DNA of 24,000 nucleotides. Source: Polyangiaceae bacterium. GTDB lineage: Bacteria > Myxococcota_A > Polyangia > Polyangiales > Polyangiaceae. The notes under the pieces are model-generated. The model had not been told where the DNA came from and did no database searches. It saw only the letters and a list, made by a program, of their open reading frames with translations. This document shows positions 2,046-22,346 of the stretch, one piece after another. Position 1 is the stretch's first letter. Each line of letters starts with the position of its first letter. The stretch lies in assembly GCA_041389785.1 (NCBI GenBank), contig JAWKRH010000026.1, positions 1-24,000 on the forward strand. Direction: 5' to 3'. Made by a program: the position numbers and the translations under genes.

Positions 2046-2492
2046 GAGCACCTCCCGTCCCGGCGGGGCGCCGGGCGCAGCGACCCGAGCGCAGGCGGCG
2101 TGACGCGCGTCCACGCCTCGACGCGCGTGACGCGTTGGAGCGCGGCGCGCCGCGTGCGCGTCAGAGCAAGCCCGGCGCCCCACCGGGACGGGAGCACGCG
2201 GGAGTGAGCGCGTGGCGCATGTATACGCAAGCTTTAGCGCTCGAGTGCCTGTTCGCGATCTTGCCCGCACTCGCCGCACAAGCGTCGGCGGCGCGTCTCC
2301 GCGATGCTCCCGCCCTCGGCCCACGCCCGCCCCCGCGCGTCTTCACCCCATGATTCAGGGCCGGCGCTAGGGCCGGGTACGGGTCTCCCCCGCGCGCCCG
2401 CAGCGCGGAGCGCGAGGACGCGCTTGGGGGAGCGGCGTGGCGAGACACGCGAGAGCTCGCGCCGCTGACCCACGCCCGTGGGGGCAACTCCA
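2046..2492. repeat. inter-cassette conserved module, variant 1 (with ~48-bp insertion)
   Basis: Same sequence family as 7697..8096, 3762..4032 and 13457..13728. Contains the GCATGTATACGCA box, TGATTCAG, helix P-a (CTCCCCCGCGCG/CGCGCttGGGGGAG), helix P-b (GGCGTGG/CCACGCC) and the junction CGTGGGGGCAACTCCA. Confidence 0.85.
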
Positions 2493-3645: not shown

Positions 3646-3665
3646 GCACTCCTGGTTGACGGTCG

Positions 3666-3761
3666 CCGCCGCAGCGCGCGCCATACGCGCTCCTCGCTCG
3701 CCGTCGGCGCGTGACGCATGCGAGCCGCGTGCGCACGAAGTAGTTGAGCGCGAGCGACCAT
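3666..3761 (-). pseudogene. DUF559 endonuclease 5' stump
   Basis: Encodes MVARAQLLRAHAARMRHAPTASEERVWRALR, then homology stops. The leader and RBS are also deleted (gaccatgag|ccccaccggg here, against ~130 extra nt in the intact copy). Confidence 0.7.
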
Positions 3762-4032
3762 GAGCCCCACCGGGACGGGGGCACGCCGGAGCGAGCGCAC
3801 ACTGCATGTGTACGCACGCTTACGCACTCGAGTGACTGTTCGCGATGCTGCCGCCCTCGGCATACGCCCGCCTCCGCGCGTCTTCACCCCATGATTCAGG
3901 GCCGGCGCTAGGGCCGGGTACGGGTCTCCCCGCGCGCCCGCAGCGCGGAGCGCGAGGACGCGCTTGGGGGAGCGGCGTGGCGAGACACGCGAGAGCTCGC
4001 GCCGCTGACCCACGCCCGTGGGGGCAACTCCA
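3762..4032. repeat. inter-cassette conserved module, variant 1 (short form)
   Basis: Nearly identical to 13457..13728, with one C missing in the CTCCCCC run. Confidence 0.8.
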
Positions 4033-4097
4033 ATGCGGGCCGCGTGTGGCTGCCCGAGGTGGGGGTGTTCAGCGCGATCGACGAGCTCGCGTACCAA
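4019..4097 (+). pseudogene. 5' fragment of orphan RHS tip, cut by IS21 insertion
   Basis: GTG GGG GCA ACT CCA ATG CGG.. tip motif carrying a 1-nt deletion (atgcgggccgcg here, atgcgggcccgcg elsewhere). It ends at ..gagctcgcgtaccaa, directly abutting the IS left end. The continuation resumes at 6291. Confidence 0.75.
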
Positions 4098-4223
4098 TGT
4101 TGAGCGTCAGTAAAACTGACCCCCTGGCGACACTAAAACTGACCCCCCTCCCGGTGGCGGGAAGGATGGGAAAAGTCGATGGAATCAGGGCAAATTGTGG
4201 CACCTCCGGAGGCGGAGGTCGTG

Positions 4224-5447
4224 ATGGTCGAGCCGGAGCTCGTACGGCAGATCCGCTTGTTGCACGAGGCGGGATGGGGCGCGAAGAGCATCGCGCGGGA
4301 GGTCGCGGTCGCACGCAACACGGTGCGGCGGTACCTGCGTAGCCCACAGGCCGAGGTTCAGGTCCGGCCTGCGCGACGCGCGCTCGATGCCGAGGCGTGC
4401 TCGCGAGCTCGCGAGCTCTTCGCCGGCGCAGCGGGCGGCAACGCGGTCGTCGTCCAGCAGATGCTCGAAGCGCAGGGCGTCGAGGCGAGCGTGCGCTCGG
4501 TCCAGCGCGCGGTCGCGGAGCAACGGCGCCAGGCGCGCGTCGCCGCGCTCGCGACGGTTCGGTACGAGACCGCGCCGGGCGAGCAGATGCAGATCGACTT
4601 CGGCGAGAAGTGGGTCGACATCGCGGGCGAGCCAACGCGCGTGTTCCTCCTCGTTGCCGTGCTGAGCCATTCGCGCAGGCTCTTCGTGAAGCCGTTCCTC
4701 AACCAGCGCTCGGACGACTGGCGTGAGGGCATCGCCGCCGCGTTCCGGCACTTCGGCGGCGTCCCGCGCACGCTCCTCGGCGACAACGCCAAGGCGCTCG
4801 TCCTCGGTCGCGATCGGACGAGCGGCGCGGTGACGTTCCATCCGACCTACGTCGCGTTCTGTCGTGACTGGGGCGTCCAGCCCCGCGCATGCGGGCCGTA
4901 CCGCGCCCGGACCAAGGGCAAGACCGAGAGCGGCGTGAAGTACGTCAAGCGCAACGGACTGGCCGACCGCGCGTTCGAGTCGTTCGCGGCGCTCGAGCAG
5001 CACCTCGGCGAGTGGATGGTCCTCGCCGACCAGCGCGAGCACGGCACGACGCACGAGCGGCCGTTCGACCGCTTCGAGCGCGACGAGCGACGCGCGCTCC
5101 GGCCGCTACCGGCGCAGCCGCTCGTCGTGCGTCACCGTCGGCTCCGCCGGCGCGTCAGCAACGACGCCTTCGTAGACGTCGACACCGTCCGCTACAGCGT
5201 GCCGTTTCGGCTCGTGCGCGCCGAGGTCGAAGTCGTCGTCGGCGACGACGCCGTCGACGTGTTCCTCGGCGTCGAGCGCGTCGCACGCCACCTCCGCTCG
5301 AGCGAGCCCCACGCCCGCATCGTCGATCCGGCGCACTTCGATGGGCTCTGGCGTCGCTCCCCTGCGCCCGTCGTCACTGGCGGTGCGCTCGAAGCCCTCG
5401 GCCGCAGCCTCGCGGACTACGAGGCCGTCCTCGAGGTGGCGTCATGA
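4224..5447 (+). CDS. istA: IS21-family transposase IstA
   Basis: N-terminal HTH (ELVRQIRLLHEAGWGAKSIAREVAVARNTVRRYL). DDE core pattern (QIDFGEKW..VFLLVAVLSHSRR..AFRHFGGVPRTLLGDNAKALV). The start is uncertain: ATG 4224 follows GGAGGCGGAGG, and the ORF is open from ATG 4179. Confidence 0.9.
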   Translation: MVEPELVRQIRLLHEAGWGAKSIAREVAVARNTVRRYLRSPQAEVQVRPARRALDAEACSRARELFAGAAGGNAVVVQQMLEAQGVEASVRSVQRAVAEQRRQARVAALATVRYETAPGEQMQIDFGEKWVDIAGEPTRVFLLVAVLSHSRRLFVKPFLNQRSDDWREGIAAAFRHFGGVPRTLLGDNAKALVLGRDRTSGAVTFHPTYVAFCRDWGVQPRACGPYRARTKGKTESGVKYVKRNGLADRAFESFAALEQHLGEWMVLADQREHGTTHERPFDRFERDERRALRPLPAQPLVVRHRRLRRRVSNDAFVDVDTVRYSVPFRLVRAEVEVVVGDDAVDVFLGVERVARHLRSSEPHARIVDPAHFDGLWRRSPAPVVTGGALEALGRSLADYEAVLEVAS

Positions 5448-6223
5448 AGGACCTCGTCCACGCCCGCGTCGTCGATAACCTCGCTCGCCTCCGGCTCGGT
5501 CACGTCGCGGAGCGCGTCGACGCTTTGCTCTCCGAGGCGGCGAAGAAGGACTCGACGTACCTCGACTTCCTCGACGGGCTCCTCTCCGAGGAGCTCGCGA
5601 GCAAGCAACGCAAGCGCATCGCGATGCACGTGCAGATTGCGCACTTCCCGGCCGTGAAGACGCTCGACGACTTCGATTTCAAGTTCCAGCCGAGCCTGGA
5701 CCAGAAGCTCGTGCGCGAGCTCGCCACCGGCCGCTACATCGCCAACGCCGAAAACGTCCTCGTCTTCGGGCCGCCCGGCGTCGGCAAGACGCACCTCGCG
5801 ATCGCGCTCGGCCGCGCCGCCGTCGAGACCGGCCACGCTGTGCTCTTCGTCAGCGCCACGACCCTGCTCGCGCAGCTCGCCCGCGCCGAGGCGGAAGGAC
5901 AGCTCGACGCCAAGCTCGCCTACTTCGCGAAGCCGAAGCTCCTCGTCATCGACGAGCTCGGCTACCTGCCCTTCGAGAAGCGCGCCGCGCATCTCTTCTT
6001 CCAGCTCGTCGCGCGGCGCTACGAGCGCGGCAGCCTCCTCATCACGACCAACCAGGTCGTGACGCAGTGGGGCGCCGTCTTCGGCGACGACGTGCTCGCG
6101 GCGGCGATCCTCGACCGCCTCTTGCACCACTCCCACACCCTCATGATCCAAGGAGAGAGCTACCGCTTGAAGCAGAAGAAAAGGGCCGGCCTGCTCGGTA
6201 GCAGCGCGGCCTCGAAGGGCTGA
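5444..6223 (+). CDS. istB: IS21-family helper ATPase IstB
   Basis: ATGA overlap with the istA stop. Walker A GPPGVGKTH, Walker B LLVIDELGY, and a typical IstB tail (LLITTNQ..WG..F.D..LAAAILDRLLHHS). Confidence 0.92.
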   Translation: MKDLVHARVVDNLARLRLGHVAERVDALLSEAAKKDSTYLDFLDGLLSEELASKQRKRIAMHVQIAHFPAVKTLDDFDFKFQPSLDQKLVRELATGRYIANAENVLVFGPPGVGKTHLAIALGRAAVETGHAVLFVSATTLLAQLARAEAEGQLDAKLAYFAKPKLLVIDELGYLPFEKRAAHLFFQLVARRYERGSLLITTNQVVTQWGAVFGDDVLAAAILDRLLHHSHTLMIQGESYRLKQKKRAGLLGSSAASKG

Positions 6224-6290
6224 TCGCAGGCCTCTGGGAGGGGGTCAGTTTTACTGTCGTAAGGGGGTCAGTTCTCGCTGACGTTGCACA

Positions 6291-7360: not shown

Positions 7361-7696
7361 CTACCCGCCGACCGCCGCCGCGATCCTCGCGACCGCCACC
7401 TCGATCGGCTCCTCGCTGCCAACCCTGACGACGCGCCACCCCGCGCGCGCGAGCCGCGCATCCCGCCTCGCGTCCGCGGCGACGCGCTCCGCATGATACC
7501 CGCCATCGACCTCGACCACGAGCCGCACCGAGGACGCCGCGAAGTCGACGATGCAGCCACCGACGACGACCTGCCGCCGAAACACGACGCCGAGCTGCCG
7601 GCCGCGCAGCGCGCGCCACAGGCGCTCCTCGCTCGCCGTCGGCGCGTGACGCATGCGAGCCGCGTGTGCACGAAGGACCTGAGCGCGATCGACCAT
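7361..7696 (-). CDS. DUF559 (Vsr-like) endonuclease domain protein, the only intact copy
   Basis: 111 aa: MVDRAQVLRAHAARMRHAPTASEERLWRALRGRQLGVVFRRQVVVGGCIVDFAASSVRLVVEVDGGYHAERVAADARRDARLARAGWRVVRVGSEEPIEVAVARIAAAVGG. GGAGGTG sits 5 nt upstream of the ATG. Confidence 0.85.
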   Translation of the reverse strand: MVDRAQVLRAHAARMRHAPTASEERLWRALRGRQLGVVFRRQVVVGGCIVDFAASSVRLVVEVDGGYHAERVAADARRDARLARAGWRVVRVGSEEPIEVAVARIAAAVGG

Positions 7697-8096
7697 GAGC
7701 ACCTCCCGTCCCGGCGGGGCGCCGGGCGCAGCGACCCGAGCGCAGGCGGCGTGACGCGCGTCCACGCCTCGACGCGCGTGACGCGAGGAGCGCGGCGCGC
7801 CGCGTGCGCGTCAGAGCAAGCCCGGCGCCCCACCGGGACGGGGGCACGCCGGAGCGAGCGCGTAACGCATGTATACGCATGCTTACGCGCTCGAGGGCCT
7901 GTTCGCGATGCTCCTGCCCTCGGCCCACGCCCGCCCCCGCGCGTCTTCACCCCATGATTCAGGGCCGGCGCTAGGGCCGCGTACGGGTCTCCCCCGCGCG
8001 CCCGCAGCGCGCAGCGCGAGGACGCGCTTGGGGGAGCGGCGTGGCGAGACACGCGAGAGCTCGCGCCGCCGACCCACGCCCGTGGGGGCAACTCCA
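7697..8096. repeat. inter-cassette conserved module, variant 1 (full form with DUF559 leader)
   Basis: Contains the leader hairpin 7753-7780, the GCATGTATACGCATGC box 7867-7882, helices P-a and P-b, and the junction CGTGGGGGCAACTCCA ending at 8096. Confidence 0.85.
7753..7780 (-). promoter_or_regulatory. hairpin in DUF559 leader
   Basis: GACGCGCGTC cacgcctc GACGCGCGTG gives a 9-bp stem with an 8-nt loop, 57-84 nt upstream of the DUF559 ATG. Also present at ~2101-2135 and ~9605-9640. Absent from the two stump copies. Confidence 0.35.
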
Positions 8097-8843
8097 ATGC
8101 GGGCCCGCGTGTGGCTGCCCGAGGTGGGGGTGTTCAGCGCGATCGACGAGCTCGCGTACCACGACGCGGCACACGCTGTGGAGCTGGCCTGGGCAGAGTC
8201 CATATCGCTATGCGGACCCGAGCGGTGCTACGCGGTCCCCGGTCTGGGGCCCACCCTGACCGCCCCGCCTGTACCCGGCGGCGCCGTGTCGTTCGAGGTT
8301 GGCATCGCGACTGCTTCGAGCGCGGGGACGTTCGGGGCCTTCGCACTCGCGGCCGGCGCGATCATCACCGCCGCCGCGACGTACGATATCCTCACCCAGC
8401 TCGACCAGCTCGAGCAACCAACCGTGACCACGGACGGGGCAGCAGCCCTGCCGGCTCTGGCCGGGGTTGCCCGAGCGCCGCGGGAGGTGGCAACATCAGT
8501 GGCGGCGGACCACCGGCGCCCCCCACGTCGAGTTCTGGTGGTGGGGCGGTGCTTCGACGCAGGCTCTGATGGAGGGGACCCATTTGCGATTCTCCGCAGC
8601 CTACGAGGCCGCCAATCGCATGTTCGTACGGTGGGCTCGGAGCAACAGCTCGAGGCCATCTTCGATCAGCTGGCGTCCGGGGGCACGCCGGTCCAGAACT
8701 ATCCGGGCTGCGCGGTTCGGCTGTCGGACGGCACCTTCGTCGGAATCCGCCAGGGATCGGCGTCAGGTGGTCCAACGATCGACATCAACCGCGCAGGCAT
8801 TCGAACGAAGATTCACATCGAGCCATGGCCACCGAACCCGTGA
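8082..8843 (+). pseudogene. decayed orphan RHS tip + toxin tail (family C paralog)
   Basis: Collinear with 4019..4097 + 6296..6979 but carries several small indels (gcggtcgctac>gcggtgctac, gacgggggcagc>gacggggcagc, agcctgccacgagg>agcctacgagg). Reading needs at least 3 frame changes. Confidence 0.7.
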
Positions 8844-9192
8844 GCACCATCGTGAAGAGATCCTCAGGTACGGCGCAGACGACTGGGTAGACATGCCTGA
8901 GGTCTACGCGATCGTGCGAGAGTTCCGCAGCCGACGGCGCGACCCTTCGAGAAAGCAGGCGATCGCCGCCATATGTCGCGTCGCAGGCTCGGTCTCATGG
9001 AGGTGGGGACCGTCACGACGGCGGGCTTCGTGGGCAGCACAGAAACGGTGGCGTCGTTCGAGTCGCGCCTCCGTGCCGAGTGGGAGTGTGAGCTCTCCGC
9101 CCTTCGTCCCGGGAGAGATCTGCTGGCTTCGTCTCACTGAGCGAGGAGCCCCCATAGCTGAGAAAGCACTCGAGCGACGGCGTAGCGAGTGA
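8825..9192 (+). pseudogene. decayed immunity gene (family C paralog)
   Basis: Collinear with 6961..7332. It carries 1-nt and multi-nt deletions (cgtggaagag>cgtgaagag, gagaagctcccagaagcc>gagagttccgcagcc). Confidence 0.65.
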
Positions 9193-9220
9193 ACGCGGCT
9201 TCCGGCGCGGTGCTTTCAGG

Positions 9221-9548
9221 CTACCCGCCGCCGCCGCGATCCTCGCGACCGCCACCTCGATCGGCCTCGCCGCCAACCCTGACGACGCGCCACCCTGCGC
9301 GCGCGAGCCGCGCATCCCGCCTCGCGTCCGCGACGCGCCCGCATGATACCCGCCATCGACCTCGACCACGAGCCGCACCGAGGACGCCGCGAAGTCGACG
9401 ATGCAGCCACCGACGACGACCTGCCGCCGAAACACGACGCCGAGCTGCCGGCCGCGCAGCGCGCGCACACAGGCGCCCTCGCCTTCGCCGTCGGCGCGTG
9501 ACGCATGCGAGCCGCGTGTGCACGAAGGACCTGAGCGCGATCGACCAT
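9221..9548 (-). pseudogene. DUF559 endonuclease gene, frameshifted
   Basis: Starts MVDRAQVLRAHAARMRHAPTA, then loses frame. The FRRQVVVGGCIVDFAASSVRLVVEVDGGYHA segment is found in another frame (ORF 9013..9468). Confidence 0.7.
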
Positions 9549-9930
9549 GAGCACCTCCCGTCCCGGCGGGGCGCCGGGCGCAGCGACCCGAGCGCAGGCG
9601 GCGTGACGCGCGTCCACGCCTCGACGCGCGTGACGCGAGGAAGCGCGGCGCGCCGCGTGCGCGTCAGAGCGCGCGCCCGGCGCCCCACCGGGACGGGGGC
9701 ACGTTGAGCGCGTAACGCATGTATACGCATGCTTACGCGCTCGAGGGCCTGTTCGCGATGCTCCTGCCCTCGGCTCCACGCCCGCCCCCGCGTCTTCACC
9801 CCAAGCGATTCAGGGCCGGGTTAGGCCGCGTACGGTCTCCGCGCCCGCAGCGCGCAGCGCGAGGACGCGCTTGGGGAGCGGCGCGGCGAGACACGCGAGA
9901 GCTCGCGCCGCCGACCCACGCCCGTACCCA
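9549..9930. repeat. inter-cassette module, variant 1, decayed
   Basis: Collinear with 7697..8096 with many small deletions. The junction is reduced to cccgtacccaATG. Confidence 0.7.
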
Positions 9931-10677
9931 ATGCGGGCCCGCGTGTGGCTGCCCGAGGTGGGGGTGTTCAGCGCGATCGACGAGTTCGCGTACCACGACG
10001 CGCGGAGCACGTTAGGTTGGCTCGCATTCTCGGTCAGGTGGCGGGATCCGTACGGACGCGGTGTAGTGCCGCGAGGCCCGGACTTCCTGAGGTTGCTCGG
10101 AGACGCAGCGTTCGACAACGCAGCAGACCTTCGGGACTTCGCGGTCGCAGACTACCAGGCGGGGAACTACACCAGCGTACTTCCACGGGGACTGGCGTTC
10201 GACATGGCGCTGATCGGGGTGGCGGCGAAGGCGCTACCCGCGATCGACGACGCTGTCGCGATGGCGGAGGGCATAGCGCAGCCGCTGCAAGCTGGGGAAT
10301 AGCCCACGCGCCGGCGGCGCGCGCGGTACTGGGGCTCGACCCGCGAACAACGGGGTCTCGCCGCAATGGCAGCCTGGCGCACGACGCGCGCGTGCGGAAG
10401 ATCGCGAGCTCGATGAAGAAGAAACGGTGTAGAGGATGTTCGAGTGAACCAGCAACAGGTCGACGCGAAGGGCAACGTCGTCGGCCGGAATCGGCCAGAC
10501 GTGCAGGGGACCCACCCCGAGACAGGTCAACGCGTAAACATTGAGATCGACACGAGCGAGTCGGGCTCGCTGAGGCACCAGCGGGTGGTGCCAGCGAACG
10601 ATCCCGACGCAGTGAACACCTTCATCGGCATCGATGGCGAAGGTCGACCGACCTCGGCTACAACGAGGAGACCATGA
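9931..10677 (+). pseudogene. decayed orphan RHS tip + pre-toxin module + toxin tail (family E/G paralog)
   Basis: Collinear with 13729..14484: MRARVWLPEVGVFSAIDEFAYHDARSTL.., VRWRDPYGRGVVPRGPDFLRLLGDAAF.., and NQQQVDAKGNVVGRNRPDVQGTHPETGQRVNIEIDTSE in ORF 10444..10677. Several indels break the frame. Confidence 0.7.
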
Positions 10678-11282: not shown

Positions 11283-11512
11283 CCAGCCGATGCCGCGGGC
11301 GGAAGCCCGCTGCACCGTTGGAAGCGCTCATCGCCAGCACGTGCTGCGGATGTACATACACGCAGTGACGCCCTGATTCAGCGGGTGAGAGAGCCGCGGA
11401 GGGGTCTCCCCCGTCCGCCTGCAGCGCGAAGCGCGAAGCCGGACTTGGGGGAGCGGCATGGCGAGACACACGCCGCATCGCGCCTGTGAGCCATGCCCGT
11501 GGGGGCAACTCC
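11283..11512. repeat. inter-cassette module, variant 2 (no DUF559)
   Basis: Contains GGATGTACATACACGCA, TGATTCAG, P-a (CTCCCCCGTCCG/CGGACttGGGGGAG), P-b (GGCATGG/CCATGCC) and the junction CGTGGGGGCAACTCCA. Identical to the 15102..15331 copy over the helices. Confidence 0.8.
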
Positions 11513-12926
11513 AGCGCTGGACCGCCTCACGAGCGTCACGCGAGAGGTGGGCGGCGCGCCCGTCGCGCTCGAGACGTACGCGTTCAACCGCCTCGGCGCC
11601 TTGAAGACCCACGCGGGCGCGCCCGTAGACGACCAGCGCCCGCGGCTCGACGGTGGAGGCCTCGCAGACGCGGCCGTGCCGGCCACGGCGGGAGGTCAAC
11701 CCATCACGGTCGACGCGGCGGGCCGCCTCACCGCGCTGCGCGGAGTGAGCCTGGGCTACTCAGGCATGGGCTACCTGATCGAGGCGGCCCCACCCATCCC
11801 CGGGGTGTCGCAGCACTTCTTGATGGATGCCTCGATGCGTCGAGTGCTCAAGGCGAGCGCCGACGGAGCAGAGGTAGAGCGGTACGCGTACGAGGGAGCG
11901 AACCGCGTGGCGGTCCTCGACCGCTTCGGAACCGTGACCGAGTCGACGCTGTTCGACGGGGTGGATCACCTGCTGCGCATGCGCAGGGGCGCGACGACCG
12001 TCTTCTTCGAGCTCGATCTCGCCGGCAACGTACGGCGACTGCGCGGTGCGGGTGGCGTGGACCTCGGCGGGTACAGGTACTCGGCGTTCGGCAGGCAGCT
12101 CGAGGACACCGCGAGCGCGAGCTTCGCGCAGCCGTTCCGGTGGAAGGGGCGGCCGCGCGATGTGCTGGGCGGGGTCGAGACGTATGACATGCGGGCGCGC
12201 GTGTGGCTGCCCGAGGTGGGGGTGTTCAGCGCGATCGACGAGCTCGCGTATCAGGACGCGCGGAGCACGCTGTGGGGTTGGCCCGGGCAGAGCCCGTATC
12301 GATATTCGGACCCGAGCGGTCGCTGCCCCGCCTGTGTCGCGGCGTTGGTGACCCTCATCGGCTTCGGCGTGGCGGCGCCGTCCGACACAGCGAGTGCTCC
12401 GGCGGACCTTCCTGGAATGATGGCGGCGGTGCCCGGGCTGGGCCAGGCGGCCGGGGCCGGGCTCCGGGGCATCGCCGGCTTCTTGGCGCCCTACGTGGAG
12501 CGGACCGCGCCAGGCCTCGCCAACGCGCTGCGAGGCGCCCCGCGCGCGAGCGCCGCTGCGGAAGCAGCTGGGGGCAGTTGCGGCGGGGGCGTGGCAGCTG
12601 GCGGGGCTGCGCCTGGAACGATCGCACAAATTGCCGAGGGCAAGAGTATCCAGGGAGGAGTGCGGGCGCTCAACGAGGCGGGCGCCTCGCAACAGGAGGC
12701 GGTGCAAGCCTTGACGCAAATCGTTGCCAACTCTGGTCGAGAGCTTATTCAGACGACGGTGCAGGGCGAGGCCGGCAGCGTAGGTCTAGCAGGTGTTCAG
12801 TTCGTCCACGGCGGAGCAACCAAGGCCGTGGTCGTTGGCGCAGACGGCGTCGCTAGGTACGGCTCTGCGACCGCCACGTATTCGGCGGACGGCTCGCTCG
12901 TGCTCTCGAACTTCGTTCCGTACTGA
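11493..12926 (+). CDS. long orphan RHS protein: ~230 aa of YD-repeat shell + core tip + toxin tail (family B/F)
   Basis: 477-aa intact ORF. YD-type repeats (VERYAYEGANRVAVLD, GGYRYSAFGRQ, FAQPFRWKGRP), the tip motif ..YDMRARVWLPEVGVFSAIDELAYQDARSTLWGWPGQSPYRYSDPSGRC, a hydrophobic linker, then a ~130-aa tail of unknown fold ending SLVLSNFVPY. The start could be ATG 11493 or the conserved GTG 11499. Confidence 0.85.
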   Translation: MPVGATPALDRLTSVTREVGGAPVALETYAFNRLGALKTHAGAPVDDQRPRLDGGGLADAAVPATAGGQPITVDAAGRLTALRGVSLGYSGMGYLIEAAPPIPGVSQHFLMDASMRRVLKASADGAEVERYAYEGANRVAVLDRFGTVTESTLFDGVDHLLRMRRGATTVFFELDLAGNVRRLRGAGGVDLGGYRYSAFGRQLEDTASASFAQPFRWKGRPRDVLGGVETYDMRARVWLPEVGVFSAIDELAYQDARSTLWGWPGQSPYRYSDPSGRCPACVAALVTLIGFGVAAPSDTASAPADLPGMMAAVPGLGQAAGAGLRGIAGFLAPYVERTAPGLANALRGAPRASAAAEAAGGSCGGGVAAGGAAPGTIAQIAEGKSIQGGVRALNEAGASQQEAVQALTQIVANSGRELIQTTVQGEAGSVGLAGVQFVHGGATKAVVVGADGVARYGSATATYSADGSLVLSNFVPY

Positions 12927-12940
12927 GTACGCTTGCCCCC

Positions 12941-13339
12941 ATGAGCATCCCCCCGAACATCTCCCATCGCATTGAGCGTGCGATCGGCATGTTGGAGCCC
13001 GAGCCGCTCGGGCACGTCAACTACGAGGGGCGGCGGCATCGAGCGCTTCCGCTCTTCGGCACGGTGGGTGAAGTTTGGCTGCTCCGGCCCGACGGCACAC
13101 TGTGGAGAGCAGACTCCGACGCGGGGCTGCCACTGGAGCCTCTCCCCGCAGAGCTGCACACGATGGCGCTCGTCGCTGGCTCGCTGCGATATCCTTGGCT
13201 TGGCGCGTTGCTGCCCGTGCGACCGCTTGGAGCCATCGAGTGCGGAACTTGCGACGGGGCGGGAAGGTTGGGCGCGACGAAGACGGTCTTCTGCAACACC
13301 TGTGGCGCGCTTGGGTGGCGCCCGCCGCCACCCGGGTGA
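12941..13339 (+). CDS. putative immunity protein with DnaJ-type zinc-finger pair
   Basis: Identical protein to 3247..3645. It follows the intact toxin by 14 nt. Confidence 0.75.
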   Translation: MSIPPNISHRIERAIGMLEPEPLGHVNYEGRRHRALPLFGTVGEVWLLRPDGTLWRADSDAGLPLEPLPAELHTMALVAGSLRYPWLGALLPVRPLGAIECGTCDGAGRLGATKTVFCNTCGALGWRPPPPG

Positions 13340-13358
13340 GCACTCCTGGTTGACGGTC

Positions 13359-13456
13359 GCGCCGCGCAGCGCGCGCCATACGCGCTCCTCGCTCGCCGTC
13401 GGCGCGTGACGCATGCGAGCCGCGTGCGCACGAAGTAGTTGAGCGCGAGCGACCAT
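13359..13456 (-). pseudogene. DUF559 endonuclease 5' stump
   Basis: Same truncated form as 3666..3761 (MVARAQLLRAHAARMRHAPTASEERVWRALRG..). Confidence 0.7.
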
Positions 13457-13728
13457 GAGCCCCACCGGGACGGGGGCACGCCGGAGCGAGCGCACACTGC
13501 ATGTGTACGCACGCTTACGCACTCGAGTGACTGTTCGCGATGCTGCCGCCCTCGGCATACGCCCGCCTCCGCGCGTCTTCACCCCATGATTCAGGGCCGG
13601 CGCTAGGGCCGGGTACGGGTCTCCCCCGCGCGCCCGCAGCGCGGAGCGCGAGGACGCGCTTGGGGGAGCGGCGTGGCGAGACACGCGAGAGCTCGCGCCG
13701 CTGACCCACGCCCGTGGGGGCAACTCCA
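13457..13728. repeat. inter-cassette conserved module, variant 1 (short form)
   Basis: P-a is 13621-13632 paired with 13655-13668. P-b is 13670-13676 paired with 13706-13712. The conserved GTG is at 13714. Confidence 0.85.
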
Positions 13729-14484
13729 ATGCGGGCCCGCGTGTGGCTGCCCGAGGTGGGGGTGTTCAGCGCGATCGACGAGCTCGCGTACCACGACGCG
13801 CGGAGCACGCTGTGGGGTTGGCCCGGGCAGAGCCCGGTCAGGTGGCGGGATCCGTACGGACGCGGTGTAGTGCCGCGAGGCCCGGACTTCCTGAGGTTGC
13901 TCGGAGACGCAGCGTTCGACAACGCAGCAGACCTTCGGGACTTCGCGGTCGCAGACTACCAGGCGGGGAACTACACCAGCGCGTACTTCCACGGGGGACT
14001 GGCGTTCGACATGGCGCTGATCGGGGTGGCGGCGAAGGCGCTACCCGCGATCGTCGACGCCGTCGCGATGGCGGAGGGCGGCGGGCGCAGCTGCAAGTTG
14101 GGGAACAGCCCACGCGCCGGCGGCGCGCGCGGTACTGGGGCTCGACCCGCGAACAACGGGGTCTCGCCGCCGCACGGCAGCCCGGCGCACGACGCGCGCG
14201 TGCGGAAGATCGCGAGCTCGATGAAGAAGAACAAGTGGGAGGATGTTCGAGTGAACCAGCAACAGGTCGACGCGAAGGGCAACGTCGTCGGCCGGAATCG
14301 GCCAGACGTGCAGGGGACCCACCCCGAGACAGGTCAACGCGTAAACATTGAGATCGACACGAGCGAGTCGGGCTCGCTGAGGCACCAGCGGGTGGTGCCA
14401 GCGAACGATCCCGACGCAGTGAACACCTTCATCGGCATCGATGGCGAAGGTCGACCGACCTCGGCTACAACGAGGAGACCATGA
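13714..14484 (+). CDS. short orphan RHS tip + pre-toxin module + toxin tail (family E/G; possible PD-(D/E)xK-like nuclease)
   Basis: Intact 256-aa ORF from the conserved GTG (MGATPMRARVW..; alternative ATG 13729). Contains VRWRDPYGRG and the shared module PRGPDFLRLLGDAAF..GGGRSCK. The tail reads HDARVRKIASSMKK..GRNRPDVQG..GQRVNIEIDTSE. The fold assignment is weak. Confidence 0.75.
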   Translation: MGATPMRARVWLPEVGVFSAIDELAYHDARSTLWGWPGQSPVRWRDPYGRGVVPRGPDFLRLLGDAAFDNAADLRDFAVADYQAGNYTSAYFHGGLAFDMALIGVAAKALPAIVDAVAMAEGGGRSCKLGNSPRAGGARGTGARPANNGVSPPHGSPAHDARVRKIASSMKKNKWEDVRVNQQQVDAKGNVVGRNRPDVQGTHPETGQRVNIEIDTSESGSLRHQRVVPANDPDAVNTFIGIDGEGRPTSATTRRP

Positions 14485-15101
14485 CGCGGCTGTCTGCGCA
14501 TCTTCATGAAATCTGCGCCTTTGAGGCGGACCTGACGCGAGCGGCGGACACAAACGAAGCGTGGATGGGACGTTACGGACCCGTCCAGCGTTGGCGGAAT
14601 CGCGGAGCCGACGAGGCACTCGCGCGCCTACTTCCGCTGGCGTCGTTTGCGAGTCGTTACCTGCACGTCCCATGGGCAGGGTGGACACTTGTCCTCCGGA
14701 ATAAGCGTGTTATCGCGGCCGACGATGTCCTCTTCTCGTTGTCCAAAGAGCTGGCGTGTCGTGGCATGTACGGATCGTGGGCGACGAACGGCTGCATGTG
14801 GCGCGTGGTGGAGAACGGGGAGCTGCGGCGTGCGGTGCACTGCTTCTTGGATTCGGATCGGTGGGAGTTCTACGAGGAGGGAGCTCGCTACCCGTTCGAG
14901 CATCCGGAGCTCTACGAGAAGCGACGAAAGAAGGATCGGATGCCACCTGCGGTCGTGCTCGAGTACCTCGAGCAGGTGATGGGCGTGCCGTTCCCACCCG
15001 ACTGGCGGAGCCTCCTGTCGCAGGAGACGGTGTGCCTCGAGCGGTCGACGCACAAGCTGCGTCGCCCGATCGAGGAGTATGCGGTCGAGGTCGACATCTA
15101 G
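14481..15101 (+). CDS. putative immunity protein (family E/G)
   Basis: 206-aa ORF with ATGA overlap on the toxin stop. No recognisable domain. Confidence 0.72.
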   Translation: MTRLSAHLHEICAFEADLTRAADTNEAWMGRYGPVQRWRNRGADEALARLLPLASFASRYLHVPWAGWTLVLRNKRVIAADDVLFSLSKELACRGMYGSWATNGCMWRVVENGELRRAVHCFLDSDRWEFYEEGARYPFEHPELYEKRRKKDRMPPAVVLEYLEQVMGVPFPPDWRSLLSQETVCLERSTHKLRRPIEEYAVEVDI

Positions 15102-15331
15102 CCAGCCGATGCCGCGGGCGGAAGCCCGCTGCACCGTTGGAAGCGCTCATCGCCAGCACGTGCTGCGGATGTACATACACGCAGTGACGCCCTGATTCAG
15201 CGGGTGAGAGAGCCGCGGAGGGGTCTCCCCCGTCCGCCTGCAGCGCGAAGCGCGAAGCCGGACTTGGGGGAGCGGCATGGCGAGACACACGCCGCATCGC
15301 GCCTGTGAGCCATGCCCGTGGGGGCAACTCC
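15102..15331. repeat. inter-cassette module, variant 2 (no DUF559)
   Basis: P-a is 15225-15236 paired with 15259-15272. P-b is 15274-15280 paired with 15310-15316 and contains ATG 15312. The conserved GTG is at 15318. Confidence 0.8.
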
Positions 15332-16712
15332 AGCGCTGGACCGCCTCACGAGCGTCACGCGAGAGGTGGGCGGCGCGCCCGTCGCGCTCGAGACGTACGC
15401 GTTCAACAGCCTCGGCGCCTTGAAGACCCACGCGGGCGCGCCCGTAGACGACCAGCGCCCGCGCCTCGACGGCGGAGGCCTCGCAGACGCGGCCGTGCCG
15501 GCCACGGCGGGAGGTCAACCCATCACGCTCGACGCGGCGGGCCGCCTCACCGCGCTGCGCGGAGTGAGCCTGGGCTACTCAGGCATGGGCTACCTGATCG
15601 AGGCGGCCCCACCCATCCCCGGGGTGTCGCAGCACTTCTTGATGGATGCCTCGATGCGTCGAGTGCTCAAGGCGAGCGCCGACGGAGCAGAGGTAGAGCG
15701 GTACGCGTACGAGGGAGCGAACCGCGTGGCGGTCCTCGACCGCTTCGGAACCGTGACCGAGTCGACGCTGTTCGACGGGGTGGATCACCCCATCCGTCTG
15801 AAGCGAGGCGGGACGACGGTCTTCTTGGAGCTAGACCTCGCCGGCCACGTGAGGCGACTGCGCGCGCCAGGCGGCGGAGACCTGGGGGGATACCGCTACA
15901 GCGCGTTCGGCAAGCAGCTCGAGGACACAGCGAGCGCAAGCTTCACGCAGCCGTACCGGTGGAAGGGACGCCCCCGCGACGTGCTGGGCGGGGTCGAGAC
16001 GTATGACATGCGAGCCCGCGTGTGGCTGCCCGAGGTGGGGGTGTTCAGCGCGATCGACGAGCTCGCGTACCACGACGCGCGGAGCACGCTGTGGGGTTGG
16101 CCGGGGCAGAGCCCGGTGCGGTGGAGTGATCCGTACGGGCGAGGTGTCACGCCGAGGGGCCCCGACTTTCTCGGGCTGCTCGGAGACGCCGCTTTCCAGA
16201 ACGCAGCGGACCTGCGGGACTTCGCGGTCGCAGACTACAACGCGGGTAACTACACGAGCGCGTACTTCCACGGGGGTCTGGCGTTCGACATGGCGCTGAT
16301 CGGGGTGGCGGCGAAGGCGCTACCCGCGATCGTCGACGCCGTCGCGATGACCGAGGGCGGCGGGCGCAGCTGCAAGACCGGCGCGAGGGGGTCCTCAGGC
16401 CGGGGCCAAGCAACTGCGACTGGCGGAGGGGAGACCAAGCAGACGGGTTCCTATACCAACACGCATGCCAGCGGCAAGACCTATTCGGGCAAGGGTTCCC
16501 GAACGCGCTCTCAGCAGTCCGGTCGGCGTCAGGCTCGCGCCAACGACGATCCCCACACGGCCACAGACTGGACTCCGGCAGAGAACACGCGGGAGGCATT
16601 CAAGCAGGAATCTCGACGGCTAGATGGTCAAGGTGGGGTAGAAAGCCCGTCGAACTATAACGAGGTCGAATCGCCCGGGAAGCGGTTCCGGATCGAGGAT
16701 GGTGAGCTGTGA
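15312..16712 (+). CDS. long orphan RHS protein: YD-repeat shell + core tip + pre-toxin module + GIY-YIG-like toxin tail (family H)
   Basis: 466-aa intact ORF. The N-terminal 160 aa are nearly identical to 11493..12926. Contains the tip ..VRWSDPYGRG and the shared pre-toxin module up to GGGRSCK. In the tail, GSYTNTHASGKTYSGKGS gives Y-x9-Y-x-G, followed by RTRSQQSGRR; the E of FKQESRRLD and the first N of SNYN lie 15 residues apart. This is GIY-YIG-like spacing. Confidence 0.85.
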   Translation: MPVGATPALDRLTSVTREVGGAPVALETYAFNSLGALKTHAGAPVDDQRPRLDGGGLADAAVPATAGGQPITLDAAGRLTALRGVSLGYSGMGYLIEAAPPIPGVSQHFLMDASMRRVLKASADGAEVERYAYEGANRVAVLDRFGTVTESTLFDGVDHPIRLKRGGTTVFLELDLAGHVRRLRAPGGGDLGGYRYSAFGKQLEDTASASFTQPYRWKGRPRDVLGGVETYDMRARVWLPEVGVFSAIDELAYHDARSTLWGWPGQSPVRWSDPYGRGVTPRGPDFLGLLGDAAFQNAADLRDFAVADYNAGNYTSAYFHGGLAFDMALIGVAAKALPAIVDAVAMTEGGGRSCKTGARGSSGRGQATATGGGETKQTGSYTNTHASGKTYSGKGSRTRSQQSGRRQARANDDPHTATDWTPAENTREAFKQESRRLDGQGGVESPSNYNEVESPGKRFRIEDGEL

Positions 16713-17122
16713 CGAGTGTAGAACACGCTGTCGTCGTCCTCCTTGAGCGACTAGAGTGCATTTTGGCTGAGCACGAGGAACTCACGGATACTGATGTGCG
16801 AGAGTCAATGCATCTTACGCTCAACTGGTACTTCGTGTGGGCCCAGGATCGCTCGCGATTTCCGCGGTGCTTCGGCATGTTCTCCGCGGATGGCGACGCA
16901 CTCGTCGCAAGCGCTATCCGTCAGTTTCTCGAGGCGACTGAAGGCTCCGGTGAGCTTTCATGCATCCCCGTCGGTCAGGCACGACTCGACGTCCTGCAAG
17001 CTGACACCGCCATCACGGGGAGCGGCATGCTCTACGACGAGTTTATTGGTCACCGCGATAGTCCGCTCCCGCCAAGACCTCTTCCGGAGCACATGTTCGC
17101 CGACGGCGACTACGGGCAATAG
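16709..17122 (+). CDS. putative immunity protein (family H)
   Basis: 137-aa ORF with GTGA overlap on the toxin stop. Codon usage is visibly less GC-rich than in the flanking genes. Confidence 0.62.
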   Translation: MTSVEHAVVVLLERLECILAEHEELTDTDVRESMHLTLNWYFVWAQDRSRFPRCFGMFSADGDALVASAIRQFLEATEGSGELSCIPVGQARLDVLQADTAITGSGMLYDEFIGHRDSPLPPRPLPEHMFADGDYGQ

Positions 17123-18434: not shown

Positions 18435-18516
18435 CTTGGAGCTCGGCGACGGGCAGATTTGGCTCGCCCCTGAGCCGCGCCGCCGAGAACATCGCAGGGG
18501 AGCCTGCGCGCCGAGC

Positions 18517-18795
18517 GCCGCCGCGCTCCTCGCGACCGCCACCTCCAATGCGAGCCCGCGTGTGGCTGCCCGACCGGCGATTTGGTGAAGACTGGGATCA
18601 GCGGCGGCACCCGAACCGCAGCGGGTGACTCGAAGGCTCCAAGCGGCCGCACGGGCAGCAACGCGCTTGGGTGGCGCCTTCGGACGGCACCGTCGTCGGC
18701 ATCCGCCAGGGATCGGCGTCAGGTGGTTCAACGATCGACATCAACCGCGCAGGCATTCGAACGAAGGTTCACATCCACCCATGGCCACCGATCCC
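18517..18795. other. mosaic of six short fragments from other cassettes
   Basis: In order: the DUF559 3' end (matches 7374-7402); the RHS tip start CCAATGCGAGCCCGCGTGTGGCTGCCCGA; a URI-like toxin core TGDLVKTGISGGTRTAAGDS (compare 727-790); 32 nt equal to the reverse complement of 3509-3540; 17 nt equal to 3611-3627; and the last ~115 nt of toxin family C (compare 6858-6965). Confidence 0.7.
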
Positions 18796-21569: not shown

Positions 21570-22268
21570 TTGAAGGACGGCGTGCGGGCAAATCGGATCC
21601 GCGAGGCGGTCGCGCAGGCCCGCAAGCTGCTCGGCGACGACCGAATCGCGCAGGCGTGCGACGTCGCGTTCAGGGCGCTGGAGTCTCTCGCAGACGAGCA
21701 GGGCTTCGACGCGGCGATGCGGCGCGAGCTCCTGTCGGCGTTGAGCTTGGCATTCGACGGTGGCCCGACGATGTGGGGGGAGCCATATCCGAGAGTGTCG
21801 AGAGACGTGGTCATCTCGTATGAAGCTCAGCGCGGCGGCGTTCCTCTGGCGGACGCCTTCGTGCGAGCGTCCGACGCATTGCCCGAGCAGGGCTCGCGCG
21901 CCGTCGCCTATCGCTACCTGTGTGCCGCGGGAACCATCTATTCGGCGTTCGGCGCGGCGGGCGCGCGGCGCCGTGAGGTCTTGAGGAAGCTATGCACGAC
22001 CGCCATTGGCTTGGGGAACCTCGACGACGCGGTGACAGCTTCGAACGCTTGGCTCGCGCTGACGCGTCCCGATGACCTGTCGGTAGAGTCGCTCCAGTAC
22101 ACGGTCGGAGTGGCCTTGTTCGACGCAGGCCGGCTGCCCCAGGCGCTCGAACGATTCGAGGACGTGCTGTCGAGGCGGCGCGCGATGGACGCGTCGAACC
22201 TGCGAAGCGCATGGGTAGACGAAGCCGAAGCGTGGGTCACGAGGGCGCGCCTCGCGACGCGCCGGTGA
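21570..22268 (+). CDS. hypothetical helical-repeat protein
   Basis: 232-aa ORF. TTG start with GGAGG 8 nt upstream, in a TTGA overlap with the stop of a short upstream ORF (..HELALALLERAFG..). It may be one frameshifted gene. The last codons run into a 41-bp module fragment. Confidence 0.5.
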   Translation: MKDGVRANRIREAVAQARKLLGDDRIAQACDVAFRALESLADEQGFDAAMRRELLSALSLAFDGGPTMWGEPYPRVSRDVVISYEAQRGGVPLADAFVRASDALPEQGSRAVAYRYLCAAGTIYSAFGAAGARRREVLRKLCTTAIGLGNLDDAVTASNAWLALTRPDDLSVESLQYTVGVALFDAGRLPQALERFEDVLSRRRAMDASNLRSAWVDEAEAWVTRARLATRR

Positions 22269-22269
22269 G

Positions 22270-22310
22270 CGCGAGAGCTCGCGCCGCTGACCCACGCCCG
22301 TGGGGGCAAC
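22270..22310. repeat. isolated 41-bp copy of the 3' end of the inter-cassette module (island boundary)
   Basis: CGCGAGAGCTCGCGCCGCTGACCCACGCCCGTGGGGGCAAC is identical to 13684-13724. Homology stops after GGGGCAAC, followed by AAAAGCTGG. Confidence 0.8.
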
Positions 22311-22346
22311 AAAAGCTGGCCCCACCCCTCATGATCCTGCATACTG

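What the first reader, a model, noticed from the sequence alone, without database searches (positions are those of the whole stretch)
13621..13716. SD-like GGGGGAG locked in helix P-a and bridged by hairpin P-b to a conserved GTG: orphan toxins may be conditionally translated
In both variants the layout is GGGGGAG-C-[P-b hairpin of ~43 nt]-C-GTG GGG GCA ACT CCA, then RHS sequence in frame. If P-b folds, the purine tract sits next to the GTG. If P-a folds, the same tract is paired with CTCCCCC. In variant 2 the alternative ATG (15312) lies inside the 3' arm of P-b. This resembles a translation switch and would give each orphan a common MGATP leader. It argues against the usual view of orphans as silent spare parts. 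This is speculative.
Basis: inference. Interest (0 to 1): 0.7.

Follow-up and report, generated by a model that had tools for sequence, protein, structure and literature searches.

The report
Structured start-codon leader on orphan toxins
Each spare ("orphan") toxin cassette in this myxobacterial RHS array is preceded by the same ~110-base folded leader, which supplies a start codon in frame, so the orphans and the immunity genes coupled to them are probably translated rather than silent.

Summary
CTCCCCC (13621-13627) pairs with GGGGGAG (13662-13668). One C follows, then the 43-nt hairpin P-b (13670-13712), one C, then GTG (13714) GGG GCA ACT CCA and RHS sequence in frame. Variant 2 (15225-15332) has the same layout.

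The element is a ~110-nt leader with three hairpins: P-a, P-b and a small GCAA-loop hairpin P-c. The window holds seven copies. More lie in other toxin arrays of related Polyangiaceae/Myxococcales metagenome contigs.

Across 13 distinct copies, 99% of stem cells pair. Four pairs show compensatory changes. One lineage shrinks P-b to 19 nt but keeps its stem.

The leader is fused to six unrelated downstream sequences, and all six are in frame with the GTG. Most immunity genes overlap the toxin stop codon.

Best reading: a portable, strongly structured translation-initiation leader that keeps displaced toxin/immunity cassettes translated.

The "switch" is not supported as stated. P-a and P-b are compatible, P-a is about -30 kcal/mol, and no conserved alternative pairing was found. 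Hairpin bridging of the SD-like tract to the GTG (T4 gene 38/25 style) is plausible but untested.

Verdict: partly supported; a new variant of known kinds; moderately interesting.

The parts
13586..13620 (+). Upstream block shared by variants 1 and 2 and the L020/L027/L030 variants (TGATTCAGGG...). Its role is unknown and it is not part of the minimal unit.
   Evidence: Alignments. The L027 copy at 9430-9548 lacks this block, so the conserved unit starts at the foot of P-a.
13621..13668 (+). Hairpin P-a. The CUCCCCC/GGGGGAG foot is followed by a UU bulge, a 5-bp stem, a 2-bp stem, and a GCGC/GCGC tip with a 3-nt loop.
   Evidence: Three pairs show compensatory change. Predicted energy is -32.7 kcal/mol.
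13662..13668 (+). SD-like tract GGGGGAG (GGAG core), which forms the 3' foot of P-a.
   Evidence: It is invariant in all full copies. Its mean predicted unpaired probability is 0.002-0.017 in 7 of 8 variants and 0.17 in this copy.
13670..13712 (+). Hairpin P-b: a 7-bp stem GGCGUGG/CCACGCC with a variable interior.
   Evidence: pair 4 shows GC, AU and GU. In L030 the interior is reduced to 5 nt while the stem is kept.
13714..13728 (+). Conserved GTG plus four codons (V/M-G-A-T-P). Positions 13715-13728 also form hairpin P-c (UGGGG-GCAA-CUCCA).
13714..14484 (+). Orphan ORF: leader codons, then the RHS core end (MRARVWLPEVG...WPGQSPVRWRDPYG), then the C-terminal toxin. An alternative start is ATG 13729.
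14481..15101 (+). Putative immunity ORF. Its ATG overlaps the toxin stop codon (ATGA).
15225..15332 (+). Variant-2 leader. P-a is 15225-15272, P-b is 15274-15316 with ATG 15312 in its 3' arm, and GTG is at 15318. It is fused to a 230-aa-longer RHS fragment (ALDRLTSV...).
11406..11513 (+). Second copy of the variant-2 leader, 100% identical and part of a duplicated block.
2385..2492 (+). Variant-1 leader copy.
3926..4032 (+). Variant-1 leader copy with one C missing from the C-run. Its orphan is split by an IS21 insertion.
7989..8096 (+). Variant-1 leader copy with two substitutions, both at unpaired positions.
9831..9933 (+). Degenerate variant-1 leader copy. The C-run is shortened and GTGGGGGCAACT is lost.
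22211..22327 (+). Leader remnant at the distal end of the array. The 42-nt block 22269-22310 is identical to variant 1. No toxin ORF follows; infA lies downstream.
   Evidence: It is conserved in L015 and L016.
7364..7699 (-). DUF559 (Vsr-like PD-(D/E)xK nuclease) gene in the same inter-cassette module. Other copies or remnants lie at about 1776-2110, 9016-9663, 3663-3771 and 13358-13466.

Best explanation
The region is the 3' two-thirds of a conserved ~110-nt RNA leader (hairpins P-a, P-b, P-c). The leader belongs to a modular spacer between toxin cassettes and acts as a portable translation-initiation region for 5'-truncated RHS/polymorphic-toxin fragments.

When a new toxin tip displaces the old one downstream, the old fragment has lost its own start. 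The leader gives it one: GUG at the P-b/P-c junction, plus an AUG two codons upstream in copies where P-b pair 4 is A-U. The result is a short M(P)VGATP fusion.

Translating the truncated toxin ORF then lets ribosomes reach the immunity gene. In most cassettes that gene's start overlaps the toxin stop (ATGA, GTGA, TGATG), often with no SD of its own. The cell therefore stays immune to toxins its relatives still use.

The leader is built to keep initiation low. The only SD-like tract (GGGGGAG) is the foot of the very stable P-a. The AUG lies in the P-b stem, and two bases of the GUG lie in P-c.

If the tract is ever used as an SD, P-b would bring it next to the GUG (one C on each side of the helix), as in the split ribosome-binding sites of phage T4 genes 38 and 25.

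Shown: the helices, their covariation, the modular in-frame fusions, and the overlap with immunity starts. Inferred: that initiation occurs at the GUG/AUG, that it serves immunity expression, and that the SD-like tract is bridged or unlocked.
For: 1. The structure is under selection.
- 95.8% (8 variants) and 99.2% (13 variants) of stem cells pair, against 36-58% when partners are slid.
- Compensatory changes occur at 3 pairs of P-a and 1 pair of P-b, including a G.U intermediate.
- The interior of P-b is replaced or deleted while its stem and both flanking Cs are kept.

2. Six independent leader/toxin junctions are all in frame with the GTG (chance about 1/243 given the first). They continue into ORFs of 193-491 aa with Tox-ART-HYD1, PT-HINT and YD-shell matches.

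3. In variants 1 and 2 an in-frame TGA lies 12 nt upstream of the GTG. This confines any common start to the leader.

4. Immunity ORFs overlap or abut the toxin stop in most cassettes examined.

5. Other genes at these loci use GGAGG-type SDs: DUF559 has GGGAGG-5 nt-AUG, and immunity gene 14481 has GAGGAG.

6. The leader always lies on the sense strand directly 5' of a toxin ORF, in at least 4 different arrays.

7. Precedents:
- Orphan immunity protein is made in E. coli EC93, even though orphan toxins usually lack initiation signals (PMC3150448).
- Salmonella Rhs orphans are translated at low level from an internal CTG (PMC7043789).
- A hairpin-bridged SD operates in T4 genes 38 and 25 (PMC3014915).
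Against: - There are no expression data of any kind, and no promoter-like site was found.
- P-a at -29 to -33 kcal/mol leaves the SD-like tract almost fully paired, and nothing that would open it was identified.
- With P-b closed the nominal SD-to-GUG spacing is only 2 nt, shorter than the 5 and 11 nt of the T4 cases.
- The GTG block also occurs in a non-coding remnant (22268-22310), so its conservation may partly reflect shared ancestry.
- Variant 1 has an ordinary alternative start: GGGGG, 8 nt, then ATG 13729.
- Several orphans in the window are frameshifted or IS-disrupted, so not every copy is under selection.
- All copies come from one narrow lineage (Polyangiaceae/Myxococcales metagenome contigs), so the number of independent evolutionary events is small.
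- Strand assignment by G.U pairs rests on two positions, and energies do not separate the strands.
Confidence: 0.5

Rival explanations
1. The hairpins are intercistronic RNA punctuation, not a translation device. P-a, and perhaps P-b, would stop or insulate read-through from the upstream cassette (U-less, I-shaped terminators of high-G+C bacteria). Alternatively they protect mRNA ends after processing. On this view the in-frame GTG is a passenger.
For: - A P-a-like hairpin without P-b, without the GGGGGAG tract and without a GTG sits between a cassette's last gene and the convergent DUF559 stop codon (L006:7002-7060, L007, L001).
- The 3' half of P-b plus the GTG block follows the stop codon of a TPR gene at 22268-22310, like a terminator.
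- P-a is very stable.
- The minimal unit starts exactly at the foot of P-a.
Against: - It does not explain six of six in-frame fusions ending at the same nucleotide.
- It does not explain why exactly one C is kept on each side of P-b.
- No T-run follows either hairpin, and the terminator scan found none.
- The two roles are not mutually exclusive.
Confidence: 0.2
2. The element works at the DNA level. It would be the fixed end of a cassette-stacking or mobile module (DUF559 nuclease gene, a ~150-nt palindrome, and the leader), and the hairpins would be recombination or cleavage signals. The in-frame property would be a by-product of where the joining occurs.
For: - All six junctions end at the same leader nucleotide...GCAAC(T/C)CCA|.
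- For the three junctions with a known full-length parent, the toxin side starts right after a Tyr-Asp codon pair (TATGAC|, TACGAC|, TACGAT|). YD occupies only about 1.3% of codon positions.
- The module starts at the DUF559 stop codon and is conserved at about 74% identity across arrays.
- DUF559 is intact in several arrays.
Against: - No recombinase or integrase is present in any locus.
- There are no attC-type core sites.
- Variant-2 and L027 units lack DUF559.
- A G.U intermediate and G.U pairs point to an RNA helix.
- A single junction can spread to many toxins by ordinary homologous recombination in the short core fragment, so few joining events are needed.
- A DNA-level role would not by itself demand in-frame joins.
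Confidence: 0.15
3. The element is a neutral relic. One ancestral intergenic sequence was copied with each cassette by segmental duplication and homogenised by gene conversion, and it has no function of its own.
For: - The window holds many 100%-identical 300-nt duplications that include leader copies.
- Variation among copies is low (89% mean column identity).
- Some copies are degenerate or truncated: 9831-9933, L017, and the second L030 copy.
Against: - Every substitution in a stem is compensated, or is a wobble, in the intact copies.
- Loops and the interior of P-b diverge freely while stems persist.
- In-frame joins at six different partners would not be expected from neutral copying.
Confidence: 0.1

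Closest known systems
Split (hairpin-bridged) ribosome-binding sites of phage T4 genes 38 and 25
   Same: An SD-like tract lies too far from the start codon in the linear sequence: 45 nt here, and 21 nt in the L030 variant. A conserved hairpin fills the gap and would bring the two together. In T4 this reduces 22 nt to 5 and 27 nt to 11, and it enhances initiation (PMC3014915).
   Different: Here the SD-like tract is itself locked in a second, far more stable helix (P-a). The residual spacing would be only 2 nt. The start is GUG and is partly inside a third hairpin. Nothing has been tested experimentally.
SD-sequestering 5' leaders (translational riboswitches, RNA thermometers, repressor hairpins)
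   Same: A purine tract with a GGAG core is paired with a C-rich anti-SD strand, and covariation in the adjoining stem shows that the helix is selected.
   Different: No aptamer, no alternative conserved fold and no Rfam match were found. P-a at about -30 kcal/mol is far too stable for a thermometer-type melting switch.
Orphan rhs-CT/rhsI and cdiA-CT/cdiI modules ('silent cassettes')
   Same: 5'-truncated toxin fragments retain the end of the conserved core and a downstream immunity gene. They are stacked after a full-length gene (L005: a main RHS of over 2068 aa, an immunity gene, then a leader and an orphan).
   Different: Described orphans generally lack translation initiation signals (PMC3150448). 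Here every orphan is preceded by a common non-RHS leader carrying start codons in frame.
Internal expression of Salmonella Rhs-CT main and orphan as TA-like modules
   Same: Truncated Rhs toxins are translated at low level from a weak non-AUG start together with their immunity protein (PMC7043789).
   Different: In Salmonella the promoter and the CTG start lie inside conserved rhs coding sequence. Here the start comes from a separate structured leader that is fused to different fragments, including one with no RHS core (VGATP|SPAAGAV...).
Integron attC sites
   Same: A structured repeat lies between co-oriented cassettes, and P-a has a conserved 2-nt bulge.
   Different: There is no integrase, no GTTRRRY/RYYYAAC core sites, and the element lies at the 5' coding junction of the next cassette. 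This comparison was rejected.

Membership tests
Hairpin-bridged (split) SD translation initiation region, T4 gene 38/25 type | A purine tract complementary to the 16S anti-SD sequence lies upstream of the start codon. | tested here: met
   GGGGGAG with a GGAG core is invariant in all full copies. Neighbouring genes use GGAGG-type SDs.
Hairpin-bridged (split) SD translation initiation region, T4 gene 38/25 type | The linear SD-to-start spacing is too long, and a stable intervening hairpin restores a functional spacing. | tested here: inconclusive
   The spacing is 45 nt, and 21 nt in L030. The P-b stem is conserved with GC/AU/GU covariation. However, the residual spacing is 2 nt, against 5 and 11 nt in T4 (PMC3014915).
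Hairpin-bridged (split) SD translation initiation region, T4 gene 38/25 type | Disrupting the hairpin lowers translation, and compensatory changes restore it. | not testable with these tools
   This needs reporter fusions or toeprinting.
SD-sequestering regulatory leader (riboswitch or RNA thermometer) | The SD is paired with an anti-SD strand. | tested here: met
   The P-a foot CUCCCCC/GGGGGAG forms in all folds. The unpaired probability of the tract is at most 0.017 in 7 of 8 variants.
SD-sequestering regulatory leader (riboswitch or RNA thermometer) | A conserved alternative conformation, ligand pocket or meltable weak helix frees the SD. | tested here: not met
   P-a and P-b co-fold. P-a is -29 to -33 kcal/mol. 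There is no Rfam hit at the gathering threshold or at E up to 10. Only two rearranged copies lack the 5' arm (L017 and L030 rc 1885-1969).
RHS orphan (silent) toxin/immunity cassette | A 5'-truncated rhs core fragment with the core-end motif, a variable C-terminal toxin and a downstream immunity gene, located after a full-length rhs gene. | tested here: met
   Window ORFs at 13714-14484 and 14481-15101, and at 15318-16712 and 16709-17122. The main RHS in L005 is 93-100% identical to the orphan core fragments. Tox-URI2, Tox-ART-HYD1 and PT-HINT matches were found.
RHS orphan (silent) toxin/immunity cassette | Translation initiation signals are absent (the usual description). | tested here: not met
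   GTG, and in some copies ATG, lie in frame in a conserved leader at all six junction types.
Integron attC recombination site | An IntI integrase nearby, and R''/L''-L'/R' arms with a GTTRRRY core. | tested here: not met
   No integrase was found among the called genes of any locus or in the window. There is no GTT core in the element.
Intrinsic (rho-independent) terminator | A G+C-rich hairpin followed by a U-run. | tested here: not met
   Hairpins are present, but no T-run follows. The scan of 12900-15500 found 0 sites. U-less terminators cannot be excluded.

The most novel reading that the evidence does not exclude
The whole inter-cassette module (a DUF559 nuclease gene, its ~150-nt SD-locking palindrome, and the P-a/P-b/P-c leader) is a dedicated cassette-stacking device with two roles. 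First, the nuclease cuts rhs DNA after Tyr-Asp codons (TAYGAY|) to start exchange or stacking of toxin tips, analogous to endonuclease-initiated mating-type switching from silent cassettes. Second, the leader is then joined at a fixed nucleotide and gives every displaced toxin/immunity pair a regulated start codon.
Probability: 0.1. Interest if true: 0.85.

Novelty: new variant of a known kind. Interest (0 to 1): 0.55.

Why it matters
Orphan toxin cassettes are usually described as promoterless, start-less spare parts that become active only after recombination into the main gene. A conserved leader that is repeatedly fused in frame to unrelated truncated toxins would show otherwise. At least one bacterial lineage would have a built-in way to keep displaced cassettes translated.

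The most plausible purpose is to keep making the immunity proteins, whose starts overlap the toxin stops. A second possible purpose is low-level, TA-like toxin expression.

The finding also gives a compact, testable RNA of about 110 nt. Natural "arm-deleted" variants already exist, which makes it useful for studying how an SD locked in one helix and bridged by another controls initiation in a high-G+C bacterium. The non-random junctions after YD codons hint at an unknown joining mechanism for building toxin arrays.

Tried and rejected
1. Exact-pattern scan of 185,579 species genomes. Only one true hit was found: L001, from the same lineage. Three others were chance hits.
2. Pattern scan of JGI metagenomes for the P-a family. 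The only hit was a chance match inside an rdgB-like gene. The element is therefore narrowly distributed in the data available.
3. Rfam at the gathering threshold over the window, and at E up to 10 on 13300-13900. Nothing meaningful was found.
4. Sigma-70 promoter and intrinsic-terminator scans of 12900-15500. None were found.
5. By-eye checks for sigma-54 (GG-N10-GC in P-b), CsrA GGA loops, a G-quadruplex upstream of P-a, and attC core sites. None is conserved between variants, so all were dropped.
6. Folding z-scores. These were too weak to decide anything in 70% G+C sequence.
7. Plus-strand versus minus-strand energy of the fixed structure. This did not discriminate between the strands.
8. 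Exact-protein look-ups for window ORF 15312-16709 and for P0007. Neither is on record.
9. The idea that the GTG frame is read from an upstream ORF. It was rejected because in-frame stops lie at -12 in variants 1 and 2, and upstream open frames differ between variants.
10. The idea that all junctions follow YD. This holds for the three junctions with known parents but, by analogy, probably not for the FGARY and FRPDRW junctions.

Full report
**Setting**

The window has about 70% G+C. It carries a co-oriented array of 5'-truncated RHS toxin fragments, each followed by a small putative immunity ORF.

The array is full of recent segmental duplications, including several 300-nt blocks at 100% identity. 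An IS21 element (IstA/IstB) splits one orphan at 4114-6273. The array ends before a TPR gene, infA and a sigma-54 activator.

Protein look-ups place the source in a Polyangiaceae (myxobacterial) MAG. Related ENA metagenome contigs gave useful context. L005 holds a full-length RHS of more than 2068 aa, then an immunity gene, then a leader and an orphan. L015 and L016 hold the distal end of the same array.

**The observation**

- CTCCCCC 13621-13627 is complementary to GGGGGAG 13662-13668.
- C13669 follows.
- P-b is GGCGTGG...CCACGCC, 13670-13712, 43 nt.
- C13713 follows, then GTG 13714, then GGG GCA ACT CCA and RHS sequence in frame.
- Variant 2 (15225-15332, duplicated at 11406-11513) has the same plan. 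Its ATG 15312 lies inside the P-b 3' arm and is in frame.

Three things should be added:
- P-a is much longer than the 7-bp foot. After a UU bulge come a 5-bp stem, a 2-bp stem and a GCGC/GCGC tip. The predicted energy is -29 to -33 kcal/mol.
- The last 14 nt form a third hairpin, P-c (UGGGG-GCAA-CUCCA). It holds two bases of the GTG.
- The window has seven copies plus a remnant.

**Is it more than chance?**

Folding z-scores are unimpressive in this composition (-2.2 and -1.3). Copies inside the window are mostly recent duplicates, so comparison between variants carries the weight.

Variant 1 and variant 2 differ at eight positions in P-a. Six of these form three compensated pairs, and the other two are unpaired.

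More variants came from tracing the DUF559 gene that sits on the opposite strand between cassettes to other contigs: L020/L029, L027 and L030.

- On a MAFFT alignment of 8 distinct copies, 95.8% of stem cells pair, against 36-53% when partners are slid by 1-3 columns. Four pairs change on both sides.
- On a model-based alignment of 13 distinct copies, 99.2% pair. P-a pair 15 shows CG, UA and GC. P-b pair 4 shows GC, AU and the GU intermediate. P-c has a GU/GC pair.
- In L030 the apical part of P-a is expanded by about 38 nt, and P-b is cut down to GGCGUGG-CGUAG-CCACGCC. The stems and the single C on each side of P-b are retained.

The helices are therefore real and selected. The number of independent events is small and the lineage is narrow. 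Scans of 185,579 species genomes and of JGI metagenomes found no other carriers.

**What it is attached to**

Every full copy lies on the sense strand directly 5' of a toxin-type ORF, in at least four different arrays. The leader always ends at the same nucleotide...GCAAC(T/C)CCA, and is joined to six unrelated sequences:
- MRARVWLPEVG...
- ALDRLTSV...
- FGARYLNARLGRWMSPDP...
- FRPDRWAAFREDYRFTGKEED...
- SPAAGAVINHV...
- PNAELPSADGSLLHVYLSLGDHLGS...

All six are in frame with the GTG. They run on for 193-491 codons into Tox-ART-HYD1, PT-HINT or YD-shell sequence. Given the first junction, five more in-frame joins have a chance probability of about 1/243.

In variants 1 and 2 an in-frame TGA lies 12 nt before the GTG, so reading cannot come from further upstream. 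In other variants the upstream frame is open for different lengths, so no upstream ORF is conserved.

Where P-b pair 4 is A-U, an ATG appears two codons upstream in frame, and the public gene calls start there. Variant 1 has another candidate start, ATG 13729, with GGGGG 8 nt upstream. Gene callers chose it. The other five junction types have no start codon at that place.

**Why translate a truncated toxin?**

In most cassettes examined the next ORF starts on or within a few bases of the toxin stop: TGATG at 982, ATGA at 14481, GTGA at 16709, ATGA in L020, and GTGA twice in L030. Several of these have no SD of their own.

Such overlaps are the usual signature of translational coupling. This is established knowledge, not tested here. 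A displaced cassette that has lost its start would then also lose its immunity protein, unless something supplies a start. The leader does exactly that.

This fits published work. Orphan immunity protein is made in E. coli EC93, although orphan toxins generally lack initiation signals (PMC3150448). Salmonella Rhs orphans are translated weakly from an internal CTG and behave like TA modules (PMC7043789).

**The proposed switch**

P-a is so stable that the SD-like tract is at least 98% paired in the predicted ensemble of seven of eight variants. I found no conserved competing pairing and no match to any Rfam family.

What remains plausible is the geometry. If P-a is opened by some factor, or is absent, P-b would place GGGGGAG one C away from the helix on one side and the GUG one C away on the other. 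This resembles the split ribosome-binding sites of T4 genes 38 and 25 (PMC3014915), though the residual spacing is shorter.

Two natural copies have lost precisely the 5' arm of P-a: L017 and the second L030 copy. They would make ready-made "unlocked" controls.

The same design appears on the other strand. The DUF559 SD (GGGAGG, 5 nt before its AUG) is buried in the foot of a ~150-nt near-perfect hairpin (-124 kcal/mol, z -6.8). Locking SDs in long helices therefore seems to be a habit of this module.

**Rivals**

- RNA punctuation. A P-a-like hairpin without the GGGGGAG tract, P-b or GTG lies between convergent genes (L006:7002-7060). A leader remnant follows the TPR gene's stop codon at 22268-22310. 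P-a may therefore also act as a terminator, insulator or stabiliser. This does not explain the in-frame joins, and no T-run is present.
- A DNA-level role. This is suggested by the invariant leader end and by a striking pattern. For the three junctions whose parent gene is known, the toxin side begins right after a Tyr-Asp codon pair (TATGAC|, TACGAC|, TACGAT|). YD occupies only about 1.3% of codon positions. No recombinase is present, and some units lack DUF559. A single junction can also spread to many toxins by ordinary recombination in the short core fragment.
- Neutral copying. This is contradicted by the compensated stems.

**Verdict**

I regard it as a new variant of known kinds: a repressed or bridged translation-initiation region, used here as a portable start for orphan toxin/immunity cassettes.

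Noticed in passing
window 7364-7699 (-); also about 1776-2110 (-), 9016-9663 (-, frameshifted); remnants at 3663-3771 and 13358-13466: A DUF559 (Vsr-like PD-(D/E)xK nuclease) gene lies on the opposite strand in the spacer between toxin cassettes. The same DUF559-plus-leader module, at about 74% DNA identity, separates cassettes in other toxin arrays (L020/L029, L027, L030, L026, L028).
   Followed up: partly
window 7685-7850 (- strand); equivalent at 2052-2194 and 9557-9697: A ~150-nt near-perfect palindrome lies just upstream of the DUF559 start. As RNA it folds at -124 kcal/mol (z -6.8) and buries the DUF559 SD (GGGAGG, 5 nt before the AUG) in its foot.
   Followed up: partly
L005:5435-5470 and 4760-4795; L028 (rc) 5533-5568; window junctions 13728/13729 and 15332/15333: For the three junction types with a known full-length parent, the RHS-derived part of the orphan starts exactly after a Tyr-Asp codon pair (TATGAC|, TACGAC|, TACGAT|). 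YD makes up only about 1.3% of core codons. This non-random pattern is unexplained.
   Followed up: partly
window 22211-22327 (identical block 22269-22310); L015:6627-6743; L016:8519-8635: A leader remnant lies at the distal end of the array. It overlaps the end of a TPR gene and lies upstream of infA. It is cut after ...GTGGGGGCAAC and no toxin follows. It may mark the oldest end of the array or a deletion scar.
   Followed up: partly
L006:7002-7060, L007:6781-6839, L001:3507-3565: A P-a-like hairpin stands alone (GGGCAGG instead of GGGGGAG, several G.U pairs) between a cassette's last gene and the convergent DUF559 stop codon. It looks like a terminator or insulator relative of P-a.
   Followed up: partly
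L017:51-167 and L030 (rc) 1885-1969: Two natural leader copies have lost the CUCCCCC 5' arm of P-a by replacement or an 8-nt deletion. This leaves the SD-like tract unpaired.
   Followed up: no
window 4114-6273: An IS21-family element (IstA with an rve domain, plus IstB) with 34-nt inverted ends splits an orphan cassette. IS66 elements interrupt the equivalent orphan in L005-L010.
   Followed up: partly
window 18435-18547: A different upstream sequence (...GGGGAGC...GACCGCCACCTCCA) is joined to the same ATGCGAGCCCGCGTGTGG core start. It again ends in CTCCA and again has a GGGGAG tract about 50 nt upstream. It may be a highly decayed leader, but the covariance model did not detect it. The same junction is in L016:4856.
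   Followed up: no
window 3925-3945, 4033-4045, 9831-9933, 2493-3229, 8097-8843: Duplicated cassettes differ by single-base homopolymer length changes and frameshifts (for example C4 versus C5, and GGGCCGCG versus GGGCCCGCG). These could be real decay of orphans or assembly errors, and I could not tell which.
   Followed up: no
window 7856-7892, 9706-9742, 13488-13524; variant-2 equivalent 15168-15185: A relatively A+T-rich dyad (GAGCGCGTAACGCATGTATACGCATGCTTACGCGCTC) lies between the DUF559 palindrome and the leader. It is partly shared with variant 2. It is a candidate operator or promoter region for the divergent genes.
   Followed up: no
window 13714-13728 and all leader copies: The five leader codons use A/T-ending codons (GCA, ACT, CCA) in a genome where third positions are about 85% G+C. 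The only variation seen is ACT to ACC, which is synonymous and also converts a G.U pair in P-c to G-C. The nucleotide sequence, not only the peptide, appears constrained.
   Followed up: partly
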